From Promethearchaeota archaeon (GTDB lineage Archaea > Asgardarchaeota > Lokiarchaeia > Sigyniarchaeales > SOKP01): a DNA stretch of 64,000 nucleotides. Both the position numbers and the translations under genes were made by a program. The notes beneath the pieces are model-generated. The model did not search any database and was not told where the DNA came from. It saw only the letters and a program-made list of their open reading frames with translations. This document shows, one piece after another, positions 24,401 to 28,176 of this stretch. The stretch is from assembly GCA_048937405.1 (NCBI GenBank), contig JBHLNF010000001.1, positions 288,001 through 352,000 of the forward strand, read 5' to 3'. How positions within the stretch are numbered: the first letter of the stretch is position 1; every line of letters begins with the position of its first letter.

Positions 24401-25228
24401 ATGAATATGGAATTATCAAAAGATCTGAATATTAAACTTCAAAGACTTCTTTCGTTTTTAAATGGAAAAAAAGTTATCGTAGCTTTTTCGGGAGGTGTAG
24501 ATAGTTCCCTTTTAGCATTTTTATCAAAAAAATATGCAAAAGAAACATTGCTTATAACTGAAAAATCAATTCTTTATCCTGAAGAAGAAATTAAATTAAC
24601 ATCCCAATTTGCTAAAAAATATGATATAAACCATTTGATTATTGAACGAGATCCTTTAAAAAACGAAGAATTCCAATTTAATCCGTCAAATAGATGCTAT
24701 ATTTGTAAAACAGGTCTATATAGTGATATAATTAAAATTAGAGATTCAAAAAAATTTGATTTAATTCTAGATGGTTCAAATATAGATGATCTTTCAGATT
24801 ATAGACCAGGGATGCAAGCTTTAAAAGAGTTAAAGATTTCTACACCGTATATTGAATTTAATATAAATAAAAATGAAATAAGAGATCTTAGTAAATTTTA
24901 TGATCTTGAGGTCCAATCTAAACCATCAATGGCTTGTTTTTCATCTCGAATTCCCTATGGTCAAATTATCAATGAAAAGAAATTATATATGATAAAAGAA
25001 TCTGAAAAATTTCTTAAGAAAAAATTTAATTTAACTCAATTAAGAGTGAGATTACATGAAGAAACTCTTGCCCGTATCGAATTTTTGCCTGAGCATTTAT
25101 CCAAAATTCTAACTGTAAAAAATTTAGAAATAATTAAAAGTAAACTAAAAGAACTAGGATTCACATATATTACTATTGATATTGAGGGATTTAGGTCAGG
25201 TTCAATGAATGAAGCTTTAGATTTATAG
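24401..25228 (+). CDS. larE: ATP-dependent sacrificial sulfur transferase LarE
   Basis: AFSGGVDS, RCYICK, DYRPG, ACFSSRIPYG, GFRSGSMN. Confidence 0.92.
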   Translation: MNMELSKDLNIKLQRLLSFLNGKKVIVAFSGGVDSSLLAFLSKKYAKETLLITEKSILYPEEEIKLTSQFAKKYDINHLIIERDPLKNEEFQFNPSNRCYICKTGLYSDIIKIRDSKKFDLILDGSNIDDLSDYRPGMQALKELKISTPYIEFNINKNEIRDLSKFYDLEVQSKPSMACFSSRIPYGQIINEKKLYMIKESEKFLKKKFNLTQLRVRLHEETLARIEFLPEHLSKILTVKNLEIIKSKLKELGFTYITIDIEGFRSGSMNEALDL

Positions 25229-25242
25229 TAACTATCATTATT

Positions 25243-26660
25243 TTAATTTTCCTTTCTAATAAATTTGATAATCTTTATACGCTTCTCTAATGCTTTAATT
25301 TCTGCTTTTTTAACCTCGTTTTCCATTTTTTCAAGCAACTCAGGTGTCTCTTCTCCAACCTCTTGTTTTATTTTAGTATAGGCAGATTCTCTGAATTTTG
25401 GCAGGATTTCTTTTCTATTTTCATCAGAAAAAGTAAAAAAAACTTGGTTTGAGTCATCTACATATCCTATTTCATCACATTTGATATTAATTCTTTTGAG
25501 ATCAGAGATAATTTTCTCTGCGACGGTTGCTGAGCAATAAATTAAAAGAGCATCTAAAGAAACTCCTAAATAATCAACTCCAACTTTTCTCAACATGTTT
25601 AGAACATTCTGATTTACTAGATTTCTTACTTTTTCTTCAAATATATTTACACCGCATTTAGCTTCATAATTTATCTCATATAAATCTCCTCTTAAACCAC
25701 CATTTGTGACATCACACATTGCTCTAATCTCATCTATATAATCTGAGTTTAAAATAGTTTCACAAGCCTCTAAGAACTTTATATTCATCGTTTCTTTTAC
25801 AACATCATGATTTCCAGAATATATTGCCGTAGTTGTTATTGTTCCACCGCCAGCACCTTCAGTCATTAAGATTTTATCTCCAACTTGTATATTCCTTCTT
25901 GCTAATAACCTATTACAAACTCCTATTGCGCTTATTCCACCGACTAGTCTATTACCAATTACCATATCTCCTCCAATTCTCAAAGTTGAACCAGCGGTTA
26001 TTGGTACATTGGCTAAATCAGAAACTGTCGATACACCAGCTATGAAATCAAATAATTTCCCTACATCAGCGTCATCTCCAAGATGGACATCAATCATTAT
26101 AGAAATTGGTTTTGCGCCTTTAACATAGAGATCTCGTAGTGCGGCTCTCGATACGCTTCACGCAACTTATTACGCGAACTTACGTGAAAACCACACAAGA
26201 ATGGAAAGTCACTTAAACGACTGTGAATACCTTCCATTTTTGATACAATGATTAAATTATCTTCGGCTTTATATCCTTCAATATCACTAATCCTCACAGC
26301 ACCGGCATCATCTAAGGAGCTAGGTGATAGATATGCTCTCTGCTCTGTTTCAGATAACTCTGCGATGAGTTTATGAACAAAAAAGTCGCCTGATCCCCTA
26401 CAACCTATTCCTTGTTTACCAATGGTCACATTTGCCTTATTAATATCTAATAAATATCTCATAAAGGGATCTGAAACTGTCTTTATATCACTTTTTTTAC
26501 ATTCTTCATATATCGCTTCAGCAAGTGAGGTTGCGGACTCTACCTCAATGTCTTTAAAATCCAGATATTCTTTAACAAGACGTAAAATAATTTCTTCCTT
26601 TGTAAAACCTTTTCTCATTAACCTTCTTGTTAAACCTTCTAAATCACTCAAATTGCTCAA
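25243..26660 (-). CDS. Archaeal AIR-synthase-related protein (PurM/HypE/SelD fold), spliced CDS join(26660..26180, 26150..25243), 462 aa
   Basis: Two ORF halves join in frame (481+908=1389 nt) after removal of a 29-nt BHB insertion, giving HSRLSDFPFLCGFHVTRAALRDLYVKGAKPISIMIDVHLGDD; also DDAG, GSTLRIGGD, DVTNGGLRGD. Confidence 0.88.
26151..26179 (-). other. 29-nt bulge-helix-bulge (tRNA-type) intron in a protein-coding gene
   Basis: mRNA folds as UGUGGUUUUC-ACGU-AA^G-UUCGCGUAA-UAAG-UUGCGUGAA-GCGU-AU^C-GAGAGCCGCA: 10-bp exon helix, 4-bp central helix, two 3-nt bulges, 9-bp intron hairpin. Confidence 0.85.
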
Positions 26661-26766: not shown

Positions 26767-27777
26767 ATGACTTCTTTAAGGATAACAACCCCATGTAGGA
26801 TACATCTTTCTTTAATAGATGAAAATGGATACACAGGGAGAGTTGATGGAGGTATTGGTCTTATGCTAGACCGTCCTAATGTCGTTTTTGAAGCTTCTAA
26901 TAGTGCTGAGGAGTTTAAAATCGAAGCTCATAGATATTATCGAGAGTCGATTGAAGTCATTAATGAAATTGCTTCAAAAGTATTTAAGAAATATAATATT
27001 AGTAATAAAAATTTTCATTTTAATCTTAAAAGATATTTCCCTTCACATGTAGGGTTGGGTTCTAAGACACAATTATCCTTAGCTATAGCTACGGCCATAA
27101 CGAAATTGAAAAATTTTACTCATTTAGCTCATAAGGATCTTACTAAATTGGTAGAAAGGGGTGGAACATCTGGAATTGGGTGGAAAGGTTTTAAAACAGG
27201 GGGTTTTATTTTAGATGGAGGACATGATTTTGGTATTGGGAAAGAAAAAGAAACGTTTTTACCATCTTCAGCATCAACTTCTGTTAGTCCTGCAATAACG
27301 ATTTTTAGACATGATATCCCAGAAAATTGGAGATTTGTACTAGTGATCCCAAATATAAAAAAGGGGGCTTATGGAGATGAAGAAATCTCTGTTTTTAAAA
27401 ATTTTACACCAGTTCAAAGAAGTGAAGTAAATGAAATATCAAATCAAGTGATTATGAAGATATTACCTGGTATTATTAAAAAAGATTTAACGTGCTTTGG
27501 AGAAGGTTTAAACAAAATCCAGAGTTTAGGTTTTAAAAAAATTGAAATTGAGTTACAGCATAAAGTTGTCAAAGATTTACTACGCTTCTTTGAGGATTAT
27601 GGACTAAAAGCTTATGGTATGTCCTCATTTGGCCCTAGTGTTGTTGGAATTGTAGAATCAAATTCAGAAGCGGAAATACTTTTAAGAGAAGTTCAGACCG
27701 CCCAAAAACATCGTGGAGGTCATATCTATATTTGTAAGCCTAATAATACTGGAGCAAAAATTGAATTTATAGATTGA
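26767..27777 (+). CDS. mptG: Beta-ribofuranosylaminobenzene 5'-phosphate synthase (GHMP family)
   Basis: TPCRIHLSLID.NG..GRVDGG, HVGLGSKTQ, DGGH, GMSSFGP. Confidence 0.9.
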   Translation: MTSLRITTPCRIHLSLIDENGYTGRVDGGIGLMLDRPNVVFEASNSAEEFKIEAHRYYRESIEVINEIASKVFKKYNISNKNFHFNLKRYFPSHVGLGSKTQLSLAIATAITKLKNFTHLAHKDLTKLVERGGTSGIGWKGFKTGGFILDGGHDFGIGKEKETFLPSSASTSVSPAITIFRHDIPENWRFVLVIPNIKKGAYGDEEISVFKNFTPVQRSEVNEISNQVIMKILPGIIKKDLTCFGEGLNKIQSLGFKKIEIELQHKVVKDLLRFFEDYGLKAYGMSSFGPSVVGIVESNSEAEILLREVQTAQKHRGGHIYICKPNNTGAKIEFID

Positions 27778-27783
27778 AATTAT

Positions 27784-28176
27784 ATGTCGAAATCAAATGA
27801 AAAAATTTTTTTCTCACCTGATTTAACTGAGAGGGAACGAGCTTGTTTTGAGGCAGGCATTAAACTGGGCGCATTATATCATATCCTCAGTGGAATTCCT
27901 ATTCAAAATAATGAAAAAATAATTAAATCTATAGAAAAAGGAATAGAATCAGCTATTACTTGTCAACCATTTGTAAAATCAGTAAAAATTCAATTAGATA
28001 GAGCGAAAATTTTGGGTCAAAAAGATACAGAATTTGATTATGATGAGATATCGGGCAAAATAATAAAAGCTGAAATATTTATTGAGTATGAATCTGTAAA
28101 AGTTGTAGCAAAAGTAGAATGGAAGGATGAGTTAGATTATCCACTAATGTATATTGAAAAAATTCAAGAAAATTAA
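27784..28176 (+). CDS. mptD: Archaeal dihydroneopterin aldolase
   Basis: RERACFEAGIKLGALYH, QPFV, LDYPLMY. Confidence 0.9.
   Translation: MSKSNEKIFFSPDLTERERACFEAGIKLGALYHILSGIPIQNNEKIIKSIEKGIESAITCQPFVKSVKIQLDRAKILGQKDTEFDYDEISGKIIKAEIFIEYESVKVVAKVEWKDELDYPLMYIEKIQEN

What the first reader, a model, noticed from the sequence alone, without database searches (positions are those of the whole stretch)
26140..26195. Candidate bulge-helix-bulge (tRNA-type) intron inside an Asgard protein-coding gene
Seen in sequence: the AIR-synthase-related gene is split across two frames by a GC-richer 29-nt insertion. The minus-strand mRNA reads UGUGGUUUUC ACGU AAG UUCGCGUAA UAAG UUGCGUGAA GCGU AUC GAGAGCCGCA. 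This forms a 10-bp exon-exon helix, a 4-bp central helix (ACGU/GCGU) flanked by 3-nt bulges on opposite strands (AAG, AUC), and a 9-bp intron hairpin. Established: the archaeal splicing endonuclease EndA cuts BHB motifs after the second bulge nucleotide and RtcB ligates the ends; BHB introns in mRNA are rare, the classic case being crenarchaeal cbf5. Applying the cut rule removes exactly 26151-26179 and gives CAC GUA A|CG AGA GCC = H-V-T-R-A. That restores a 462-aa ORF and the family motif GFHVTRAALRD as I recall it. Inference: EndA/RtcB-dependent mRNA splicing in an Asgard archaeon, possibly regulatory and analogous in logic to the short frameshifting, RtcB-ligated XBP1 intron.
Basis: partly seen in the sequence, partly recalled or inferred. 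Interest (0 to 1): 0.95.

Follow-up and report, generated by a model that had tools for sequence, protein, structure and literature searches.

The report
tRNA-type intron splits Asgard enzyme gene
A 29-base intron of the kind normally cut out of archaeal tRNAs interrupts a protein-coding enzyme gene in an Asgard archaeon, is conserved with compensatory mutations in 36 other assemblies, and appears to have spread between lineages by recombination; splicing itself has not been observed.

Summary
On the minus strand, 26140-26195 forms a strict helix-bulge-helix-bulge-helix motif (10 bp, 3 nt, 4 bp, 3 nt, 9 bp). Cutting after the second nucleotide of each bulge removes 26151-26179. That fuses two ORFs into a 462-aa AIR-synthase-related protein whose junction, CGFHV|TRAALRDLYVKG, matches more than 100 intact orthologues.

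The structure is clearly under selection. Thirty-seven of 153 orthologous loci carry a 29- or 30-nt insert at the same codon. The BHB model pairs 98.6% of cells, with five pairs showing double compensatory changes. Exon codons keep 9.95 of 10 outer-helix pairs when the intron is present and 5.1 of 10 when it is absent. The host encodes two EndA subunits and RtcB.

New here: the intron travels with exon 1. A block of about 540 bp (about 26100-26640) is foreign to this genome's background, and the same mosaic recurs in independent lineages. Only 2 of 20 species of the genus carry the intron.

No RNA evidence exists, and a regulatory (XBP1-like) role is unsupported. Earlier first-reader notes of this scan report similar inserts in other genes of this genome. 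I re-read rpo10 and hdrA as BHB motifs and saw that pfk is interrupted, with weak helices.

The parts
26180..26660 (-). Exon 1 of the AIR-synthase-related gene. It has a TTG start at 26660 and ends with the first two bulge nucleotides (AA). It encodes about 160 N-terminal residues, through ...SDFPFLCGFHV plus the first base of the Thr codon.
   Evidence: ORF list. Spliced translation. Alignment with 463-aa orthologues.
26151..26179 (-). The 29-nt BHB intron. On the minus strand it is G, then the 9-bp hairpin with a UAAG loop, then GCGU, then AU.
   Evidence: Removing it restores the frame and the motif. A homologous 29/30-nt insert sits at the same codon in 36 other loci. It is single-copy in this genome.
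25243..26150 (-). Exon 2. It starts with CG of the Thr codon ACG and encodes RAALRDLYVKGAKP..., the rest of the AIRS N-domain, and the AIRS_C domain, down to the stop codon.
   Evidence: Pfam PF00586 profile positions 43-97 and PF02769 are found on the in-frame translation 25243-26148. NCBIfam gives ThiL/HypE/SelD-like hits below their cut-offs.
26186..26195 (-). Outer (exon-exon) helix h, 5' strand, UGUGGUUUUC. These bases are the codons Cys-Gly-Phe-(His).
   Evidence: Folds. 99.4% of cells pair across 31 alleles. Intron-bearing alleles hold 9.95 of 10 pairs and intron-less alleles 5.1 of 10.
26182..26185 (-). Central 4-bp helix H, 5' strand, ACGU (exon 1).
   Evidence: One allele (L001) has the double change C-G to U-A in this helix.
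26179..26181 (-). The 5' bulge, AA|G. The predicted 5' splice site lies between 26180 and 26179.
   Evidence: Sequence. The canonical cut position yields the conserved Thr codon.
26157..26178 (-). Intron hairpin h': arms 26170-26178 and 26157-26165, loop 26166-26169.
   Evidence: Four of its nine pairs show double compensatory changes across alleles.
26153..26156 (-). Central helix H, 3' strand, GCGU (intron).
26150..26152 (-). The 3' bulge, AU|C. The predicted 3' splice site lies between 26151 and 26150.
26140..26149 (-). Outer helix h, 3' strand, GAGAGCCGCA. These bases are the codons (Thr)-Arg-Ala-Ala.
26100..26652 (-). Mosaic block of about 540 bp: exon 1, the intron and about 50 nt of exon 2. 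It is foreign to the surrounding genome. The left crossover lies inside a conserved 24-nt stretch at 26629-26652. The right crossover lies near 26100, in the highly conserved region 3' of the intron.
   Evidence: Sliding-window identity to the nearest relative L018 is 0.87-0.98 outside the block and 0.63-0.78 inside it. Identity to the intron-bearing alleles L142, L049 and L158 is 0.87-0.97 inside the block only. Base-level view of the left breakpoint.

Best explanation
This is a genuine archaeal bulge-helix-bulge intron in a pre-mRNA.

Proposed mechanism. The transcript of the AIR-synthase-related gene folds locally into a strict hBHBh' motif whose outer helix is made of exon codons. The host's heteromeric EndA cuts after the second nucleotide of each 3-nt bulge. 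RtcB then joins the exons, and probably circularises the 29-nt intron. The product is an mRNA for a 462-aa enzyme with the family motif CGFHVTRAALRD restored. Unspliced RNA reads into stop codons.

What is shown: the motif, its conservation and covariation, the exon constraint, and the presence of the enzymes. What is inferred: cleavage and ligation in the cell.

Evolution. The intron is not ancestral to this genome. It arrived together with exon 1, as a block of about 540 bp, by homologous recombination with an intron-bearing allele from another Lokiarchaeial lineage. The crossovers lie in the two conserved sequence islands that flank the block. Comparable acquisitions happened repeatedly in other lineages.
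For: Structure. The MFE fold equals the BHB (z = -4.17) and persists in a longer context. The site is the sole strong outlier in a genome-wide scan with a mirror-geometry control.

Precise restoration. Canonical cuts give a 462-codon frame and a junction identical to more than 100 intact orthologues. Pfam AIRS-N resumes at profile position 43 just after the break.

Conservation. 37 of 153 loci carry a 29- or 30-nt insert at the same codon. RNAalifold recovers the same structure on its own. 98.6% of cells pair, against 30-57% when the partners are slid by 1-3 columns; 5 pairs have double changes, reached by 1 of 500 shuffles.

Exon constraint. Helix-forming synonymous choices (CAC GTA ACG AGR GCY GCA) are fixed only in intron-bearing alleles, which hold 9.95 of 10 pairs against 5.1 of 10.

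Length variation. Lengths of 29 and 30 nt coexist through two independent 1-nt deletions, and both exons are open in all 37 alleles. This is expected only if the insert is removed from the RNA.

Machinery. Two EndA-family genes, each with PF01974 and PF02778, and one RtcB. Asgard EndA is reported as the broad-specificity (alpha-beta)2 type (PMC5829648). ARAGORN finds only 14 tRNAs, 9 with introns, in a genome scored 100% complete.

Lateral acquisition. Intron state needs 5 changes on the exon-1 tree and 23 on the exon-2 tree. The window's flanking genes and exon 2 are nearest to intron-less L018, while its exon 1 is nearest to intron-bearing alleles. The mosaic is replicated in L055/L078 and L104/L027. 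Exon-1 and exon-2 identities correlate at r = 0.85 for intron-less pairs and r = 0.37 for intron-bearing pairs. Only 2 of 20 congeneric species carry the intron.
Against: No RNA-level or protein-level evidence of splicing is available. A search for full-length proteins carrying the intron-linked exon 1, which could have been spliced-transcript captures, found none closer than 78-84% identity.

Three of the ten outer-helix pairs are G-U.

The mosaic inference rests largely on metagenome-assembled contigs, and I could not check reads. Chimeric assembly across the conserved islands is unlikely, because it would need a double switch within 540 bp in a 1.05-Mb contig, repeated in independent assemblies. 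It is still not formally excluded.

It is unknown whether the intron or the exon-1 variant drives the spread.

A GUA codon precedes each predicted cut site, so a ribosomal hop cannot be excluded from the codons alone.
Confidence: 0.87

Rival explanations
1. Conditional or regulated splicing. The intron is a real BHB intron, and its removal is controlled so that enzyme production is switched on or off, in the manner of HAC1/XBP1.
For: Unspliced RNA cannot make the full enzyme, because there are in-frame stops or a frameshift. The intron sits immediately before the conserved ...RAALRDLYVKGAKP... segment of the AIRS N-domain.
Against: The intron is absent from 116 of 153 orthologues, from strains 98-100% identical in the flanking DNA, and from 18 of 20 congeneric species. 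A conserved regulatory device would not be this dispensable. No sensor or accessory element is evident, and two alleles are readable straight through (P0027 only if its in-frame TGA is read as Trp).
Confidence: 0.07
2. Translational recoding. The ribosome hops over the insert, as in phage T4 gene 60, from the GUA codon before the insert to the GUA near its end.
For: GUA codons lie at 26181-26183 and 26152-26154, and the gap contains a hairpin.
Against: Landing on the second GUA would give Val-Ser-Arg, whereas the family has Val-Thr-Arg. No stop codon directly follows the take-off codon. Hopping does not explain the conserved geometry of 3-nt bulge, 4-bp helix and 3-nt bulge. It also does not explain the exon-exon helix maintained by synonymous choices, or the compensatory change in the central helix.
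Confidence: 0.02
3. The gene is genuinely split, or is a pseudogene. The two ORFs are expressed separately or not at all, and the hairpin is incidental or serves as an RNA processing or termination signal.
For: Gene callers annotate a 164-187-aa ORF and a 281-287-aa ORF in many assemblies. The downstream ORF has an in-frame Met shortly after the break.
Against: The break lies in the middle of the AIRS N-domain. Both exons stay open in all 37 alleles, and the insert keeps a precise structure with covariation. Exon codons are constrained to pair across the insert. None of this is expected for decay or for a simple split.
Confidence: 0.03
4. Assembly or sequencing artefact.
For: None specific. 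The window comes from an assembly whose reads I cannot inspect.
Against: A homologous insert is present at the identical codon in 36 other loci from independent projects and assemblers, with sequence variation.
Confidence: 0.01

Closest known systems
BHB intron in crenarchaeal cbf5 pre-mRNA (Watanabe et al. 2002; Yokobori et al. 2009, PMC2738675)
   Same: A short protein-coding intron with a bulge-helix-bulge motif at the exon-intron boundaries. It is removed by the tRNA splicing endonuclease and ligase, and its distribution among related species is patchy (gain and loss).
   Different: The host gene differs (a PurM-superfamily enzyme rather than a pseudouridine synthase), and so does the phylum (Asgard/Lokiarchaeia rather than Crenarchaeota), so the origin is independent. 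Here the motif is a strict hBHBh' with a 10-bp exon-exon helix. Presence and absence varies between near-identical strains, and the intron is linked to a recombining exon-1 block. cbf5 splicing was shown experimentally; this case was not.
Canonical archaeal pre-tRNA introns (hBHBh' at position 37/38)
   Same: The geometry is identical: 3-nt bulges on opposite strands, each 3' of its strand of a 4-bp helix, flanked by two helices, with cleavage after the second bulge nucleotide. The enzymes are the same. This genome's tRNA genes appear heavily interrupted.
   Different: The outer helix is built from codons rather than an anticodon stem, so the structure must coexist with coding constraints. No sequence relative of this intron exists elsewhere in the genome.
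BHB intron in the 5' UTR of Haloferax volcanii HVO_1309 mRNA (Schwarz et al. 2020, PMC7714728)
   Same: An mRNA substrate of archaeal EndA, confirmed in vivo and in vitro. That paper states that cbf5 was the only other mRNA case known.
   Different: It lies in the untranslated leader, so it does not interrupt a reading frame.
HAC1/XBP1 unconventional mRNA splicing (Ire1 with Trl1 or RtcB)
   Same: Non-spliceosomal, protein-catalysed excision of a short intron that changes the reading frame, with exon ligation by RtcB in metazoans.
   Different: The endonuclease (Ire1) and the recognition motif (paired stem-loops) differ. That system is a conserved stress-regulated switch. Here there is no evidence of regulation and the intron is dispensable. 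The resemblance is one of logic only.
Mobile introns that spread with co-conversion of flanking exons (group I homing, group II retrohoming)
   Same: The intron-bearing state is transferred into intron-less alleles together with adjacent exon sequence, which produces mosaic genes and a patchy phylogenetic distribution.
   Different: A 29-30-nt intron encodes no homing endonuclease or reverse transcriptase. The tracts end in conserved sequence islands. Ordinary homologous recombination after DNA exchange is therefore the simplest mechanism, and no active homing is shown.

Membership tests
Archaeal BHB (EndA-type) intron | Two 3-nt bulges on opposite strands separated by a 4-bp helix | tested here: met
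   AAG and AUC flank ACGU/GCGU. The feature is kept in 31 distinct alleles.
Archaeal BHB (EndA-type) intron | Correct handedness: each bulge lies 3' of its strand of the central helix, as in pre-tRNA, where nt 32-35 pair with the intron and the bulges are 36-37-i1 and i(n-1)-i(n)-38 | tested here: met
   The layout is h-H-B-h'...h'-H-B-h. A mirror-geometry control gives nothing comparable anywhere in the genome. The tRNA numbering argument rests on established knowledge.
Archaeal BHB (EndA-type) intron | Flanking helices h and h' (strict hBHBh' form) | tested here: met
   A 10-bp exon-exon helix and a 9-bp intron hairpin, with 99.4% and 97.8% of cells paired across alleles.
Archaeal BHB (EndA-type) intron | Cleavage at the canonical bulge positions yields a functional mature RNA | tested here: met
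   In silico only. The cuts give a 462-codon frame and the conserved junction CGFHV|TRAALRD. Shifting both cuts by one base gives Ser instead of the conserved Thr.
Archaeal BHB (EndA-type) intron | The structure is maintained by selection (covariation) | tested here: met
   Five pairs have double changes, and the covariation score is 0.211 against 0.169 for shuffles (0 of 500 reach it). Synonymous constraint on the exon helix applies only when the intron is present.
Archaeal BHB (EndA-type) intron | The host encodes the splicing endonuclease and the RtcB ligase | tested here: met
   Two EndA-family genes and one RtcB.
Archaeal BHB (EndA-type) intron | Demonstrated cleavage and ligation: spliced junction, circular intron, or in vitro cutting | not testable with these tools
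   No transcript data are available. The protein-database search for a spliced-product capture found none.
PurM/AIR-synthase superfamily (host gene) | AIRS N-terminal (PF00586) and AIRS_C (PF02769) domains | tested here: met
   PF02769 at E = 1.3e-12 and PF00586 at E = 1.7e-5 (profile positions 43-97) on exon 2. Intact orthologues carry both domains. No equivalog reaches its cut-off, so the specific function is unknown.
Programmed translational bypass (T4 gene 60 type) | Matched take-off and landing codons that give the correct protein, with a stop codon directly after take-off | tested here: not met
   Matched GUA codons exist, but landing there would give Ser where the family has Thr. No stop follows the take-off codon.

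The most novel reading that the evidence does not exclude
BHB micro-introns in Asgard protein-coding genes behave as laterally spreading elements. This one has entered intron-less alleles in several Lokiarchaeial lineages, carried on a short recombination tract with co-converted exon sequence. It is one of several such mRNA introns in a genome whose tRNA genes are also heavily interrupted. If so, the closest prokaryotic relatives of eukaryotes would hold a dynamic population of protein-spliced mRNA introns, with ongoing gain.
Probability: 0.5. Interest if true: 0.85.

Novelty: new member of a known kind. Interest (0 to 1): 0.78.

Why it matters
Protein-coding BHB introns are extremely rare in the literature I could search. 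It records one coding case (crenarchaeal cbf5) and one 5'-UTR case in Haloferax (PMC7714728, PMC2738675), and I found none for Asgard archaea.

This example is unusually clean. It has a textbook motif, dozens of natural variants with covariation, and natural intron-plus and intron-minus strains that are otherwise almost identical. That makes three questions directly testable. Do Asgard archaea splice mRNAs with the tRNA machinery? How does an RNA structure coexist with coding constraints? How are such introns gained?

There is also a practical consequence. Gene callers currently mis-annotate these genes, either as two fragments or as proteins with a spurious 10-residue insertion.

Tried and rejected
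Genome-wide scans. The strict hBHBh' scan with an ORF-fusion test passed 20 candidates, against about 19 expected from random positions; only this site stood out. Relaxed scans were not enriched over a mirror-geometry control: 259 against 234, and 2626 against 2745. A mismatch-tolerant scan was only modestly enriched in the low-energy tail, 11 against 6 at -10 kcal/mol or lower. I therefore cannot give a reliable count of mRNA introns in this genome. These filters also miss introns with short exons, single mismatches or Sec-TGA codons.

The reversed-sequence null was discarded because reversing the sequence destroys ORFs.

A search for spliced-transcript captures or recent precise losses, meaning full-length proteins with the intron-linked exon 1, found none closer than 78-84%.

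Rfam gave no family at E = 1 or better over 25800-26500. ARAGORN found no tRNA in the window. BLAST and a core-signature search found no sequence relative of the intron elsewhere in the genome.

The upstream-neighbour tree could test only the window itself, because no other intron-bearing locus shares that neighbour.

I considered cDNA-mediated (retrohoming-like) transfer to explain why the tract runs from just 3' of the intron to the 5' end of the gene. I set it aside because the tract length varies and both crossovers lie in conserved islands, which ordinary homologous recombination explains.

One Pfam call failed on a wrong frame and was repeated.

Full report
OBSERVATION

Its parts are: UGUGGUUUUC (26195-26186), ACGU (26185-26182), AAG (26181-26179), UUCGCGUAA (26178-26170), UAAG (26169-26166), UUGCGUGAA (26165-26157), GCGU (26156-26153), AUC (26152-26150) and GAGAGCCGCA (26149-26140).

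An unconstrained fold of 75 nt returns precisely this helix-bulge-helix-bulge-helix structure, at -29 kcal/mol with z = -4.17. The structure survives in the MFE and centroid folds of a 261-nt context.

The gene is called as two ORFs, 26097-26660(-) and 25243-26097(-). Exon 2 in its correct frame carries AIRS_C and AIRS-N, the latter starting at profile position 43, so the break lies inside a domain. Deleting 26151-26179 gives one 462-codon frame. The intron has 45% G+C, against 29% for the genome.

IS THE JUNCTION RIGHT?

Relatives of about 463 aa are abundant in Asgard assemblies. Aligned with 120 of them, the spliced product matches the nearly invariant CGFHV-TRAALRDLYVKGAKPISIM with no residue gained or lost.

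The cut rule used, after the second nucleotide of each bulge, follows from the pre-tRNA case: nt 32-35 pair with the intron, and the bulges are 36-37-i1 and i(n-1)-i(n)-38 (established knowledge). Moving both cuts by one base would give Ser instead of the conserved Thr.

COMPARATIVE EVIDENCE

Ten database relatives pointed to the same interruption. Nine began at the same internal Met as this gene's downstream ORF, and one (P0027) had a 10-residue in-frame insertion at the site. A second read-through allele, P0121, turned up later. Their DNA shows a 30-nt insert at the identical codon.

Scans of species-representative genomes and of metagenomes gave 153 classifiable loci, counting the window. 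Of these, 116 have no insert and 37 have a 29- or 30-nt insert at the same place.

On 31 distinct alleles, RNAalifold independently predicts the hBHBh' structure. Under that structure 98.6% of cells pair, against 30-57% when partners are slid by 1-3 columns. Five pairs show changes on both sides, one of them in the 4-bp central helix (C-G to U-A) and four in the intron hairpin. The covariation score exceeds all 500 shuffles.

The exon codons that form the outer helix are held at CAC GTA ACG AGR GCY GCA in intron-bearing alleles, which keep 9.95 of 10 pairs. They drift freely in intron-less alleles, which keep 5.1 of 10.

All 37 intron alleles keep both exons open. Two independent 1-nt deletions made 29-nt versions without harm, one in the window's loop and one in the 3' arm of the L030 group. 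A translated or decaying insertion would not behave this way.

MACHINERY

The genome has two EndA-family genes of about 200 aa, each with the N-terminal and catalytic domains, and one RtcB. This matches the (alpha-beta)2 type with the L1 loop reported for Asgard archaea (PMC5829648).

ARAGORN finds only 14 tRNAs, 9 of them with introns, in a genome scored 100% complete. That suggests most tRNA genes are too interrupted to be recognised. A 2026 preprint describes the same situation for Asgard tRNA genes but does not treat mRNAs.

HOW THE INTRON IS DISTRIBUTED

Intron state is almost random on trees of exon 2: 23 changes, at least 17 of them forced, against about 29 for shuffled labels. It is strongly clustered on a tree of exon 1 built without the junction-proximal 46 nt: 5 changes. 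Intron-bearing alleles are more alike than intron-less ones only from roughly -240 to +29 around the intron.

For this genome, the upstream gene (95% aa), exon 2 and the downstream gene (87% aa) are all nearest to intron-less L018. Exon 1 is nearest, at 92%, to intron-bearing alleles from other backgrounds.

Sliding-window identity to L018 is 0.87-0.98 down to 26641, 0.63-0.78 from 26640 to about 26101, and 0.80-0.98 beyond. The intron-bearing alleles show the reverse pattern. The left crossover lies in a 24-nt stretch conserved in all alleles, at 26629-26652. The right crossover lies in the highly conserved region just 3' of the intron.

The pattern is replicated. L055 (intron) and L078 (none) are 98-100% identical for more than 2 kb on both sides but 47-87% identical across exon 1. 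In L104 against L027 the diverged tract is shorter, about -300 to +60.

Among intron-less pairs, exon-1 and exon-2 identities correlate at r = 0.85, so their exon 1 is native. Among intron-bearing pairs the correlation is r = 0.37. The exon-1-plus-intron block is therefore the incoming piece.

In the window's own genus, 2 of 20 species that have the gene carry the intron.

The simplest mechanism is homologous recombination with a foreign intron-bearing allele, with crossovers where homology is high. Nothing shows active homing. Because most loci come from metagenome assemblies, chimeric joins cannot be formally excluded without reads. However, a double switch within 540 bp in a 1.05-Mb contig, repeated across independent assemblies, is unlikely.

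CONTEXT IN THIS GENOME

My motif scans single this site out but are too blunt to count siblings.

I read four other loci directly. Three of them were named by earlier first-reader notes of this scan.
- rpo10 has a good hBHBh' (C7:997405-997435, 31 nt).
- hdrA has a BHB with imperfect flanking helices (C19).
- pfk is interrupted by 31 nt, with weak helices (C25).
- An MBL-fold hydrolase at C20:10793-10822, not in those notes, is a new clean candidate.

This intron is therefore the best-formed of several, not a singleton. It has no sequence relative elsewhere in the genome, and there is no Rfam family at the site.

LITERATURE

The searchable library records cbf5 as the only coding-region BHB intron, plus a 5'-UTR case in Haloferax (PMC7714728; PMC2738675). 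Five searches found nothing on Asgard mRNA BHB introns. Subscription journals are not covered, so priority cannot be guaranteed.

VERDICT

It still needs RNA-level proof.

The regulatory analogy to XBP1 is unsupported, and the intron's dispensability argues against it. The lateral spread with exon co-conversion is the new element added here.

The host gene's exact function is unknown. It is a PurM-superfamily ATP-utilising enzyme, and its neighbours are a GHMP-kinase-like gene, an archaeal dihydroneopterin aldolase and a PP-loop ATPase.

Noticed in passing
G000:C7:997405-997435 (+), outside the window: rpo10 (RNA polymerase subunit N/Rpo10) is interrupted by a 31-nt insert with a good hBHBh' motif: CGCAUGA-UCGU-AAA...GCGU-AUG-UCAUGUG. 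Splicing gives ...CCKRMIV|SHVDLIDELL. Its BHB core (NCGU AAN ... GCGU AUN) resembles the one studied here.
   Followed up: partly
L167:1194-1223 (-) = G000:C20:10793-10822: An MBL-fold hydrolase gene ends prematurely after ...AVPMH. A 30-nt insert with a perfect 9-bp hairpin, an 8-bp exon-exon helix and 3 of 4 central pairs would, if removed, continue the frame as ...AVPMH|NWGKNLTEFKELL. It is a candidate sibling mRNA intron.
   Followed up: partly
G000:C19 (-) hdrA and G000:C25:149014-149048 (+) pfk: Both genes are interrupted at conserved motifs, by about 37 nt and 31 nt. hdrA has a recognisable BHB with imperfect flanking helices. The pfk insert has a 4-bp central helix but weak flanking helices.
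   Followed up: partly
whole genome G000: ARAGORN recognises only 14 tRNA genes, 9 with introns, in a 4.47-Mb genome scored 100% complete. Most tRNA genes are probably too fragmented by introns to be detected.
   Followed up: no
P0027 (L001:319-1743), P0121, and the 281-287-aa proteins P0041, P0045, P0059, P0070, P0086, P0100, P0109-P0111: Public protein sets mis-annotate intron-bearing alleles. Some are listed as proteins with a spurious 10-residue insertion (read-through of a 30-nt intron, in one case only if TGA is read as Trp). Others are listed as a C-terminal fragment starting at an internal Met.
   Followed up: yes
window 26767-28176 (+) and 24401-25228 (+): The gene's neighbours are a GHMP-kinase-like protein, an archaeal dihydroneopterin aldolase (PF04038) and a QueC-like PP-loop ATPase. 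This neighbourhood hints at pterin-type cofactor biosynthesis, and the AIR-synthase-related enzyme might take part in it.
   Followed up: no
L038 (DATKTW010000001.1): A contig labelled 'Candidatus Nanopelagicaceae bacterium' carries an Asgard-type orthologue of this gene at 76% identity. This is probably a mis-binned contig.
   Followed up: no
window 26196-26200 with 26132-26139 (-): The exon-exon helix extends beyond the 10 bp described. G26196 pairs with C26139, and UCUU pairs with GAGA across a 3-nt asymmetry (MFE). Intron-bearing alleles also share exon sequence here (TTC TTG ... CTA CGA GAT).
   Followed up: partly
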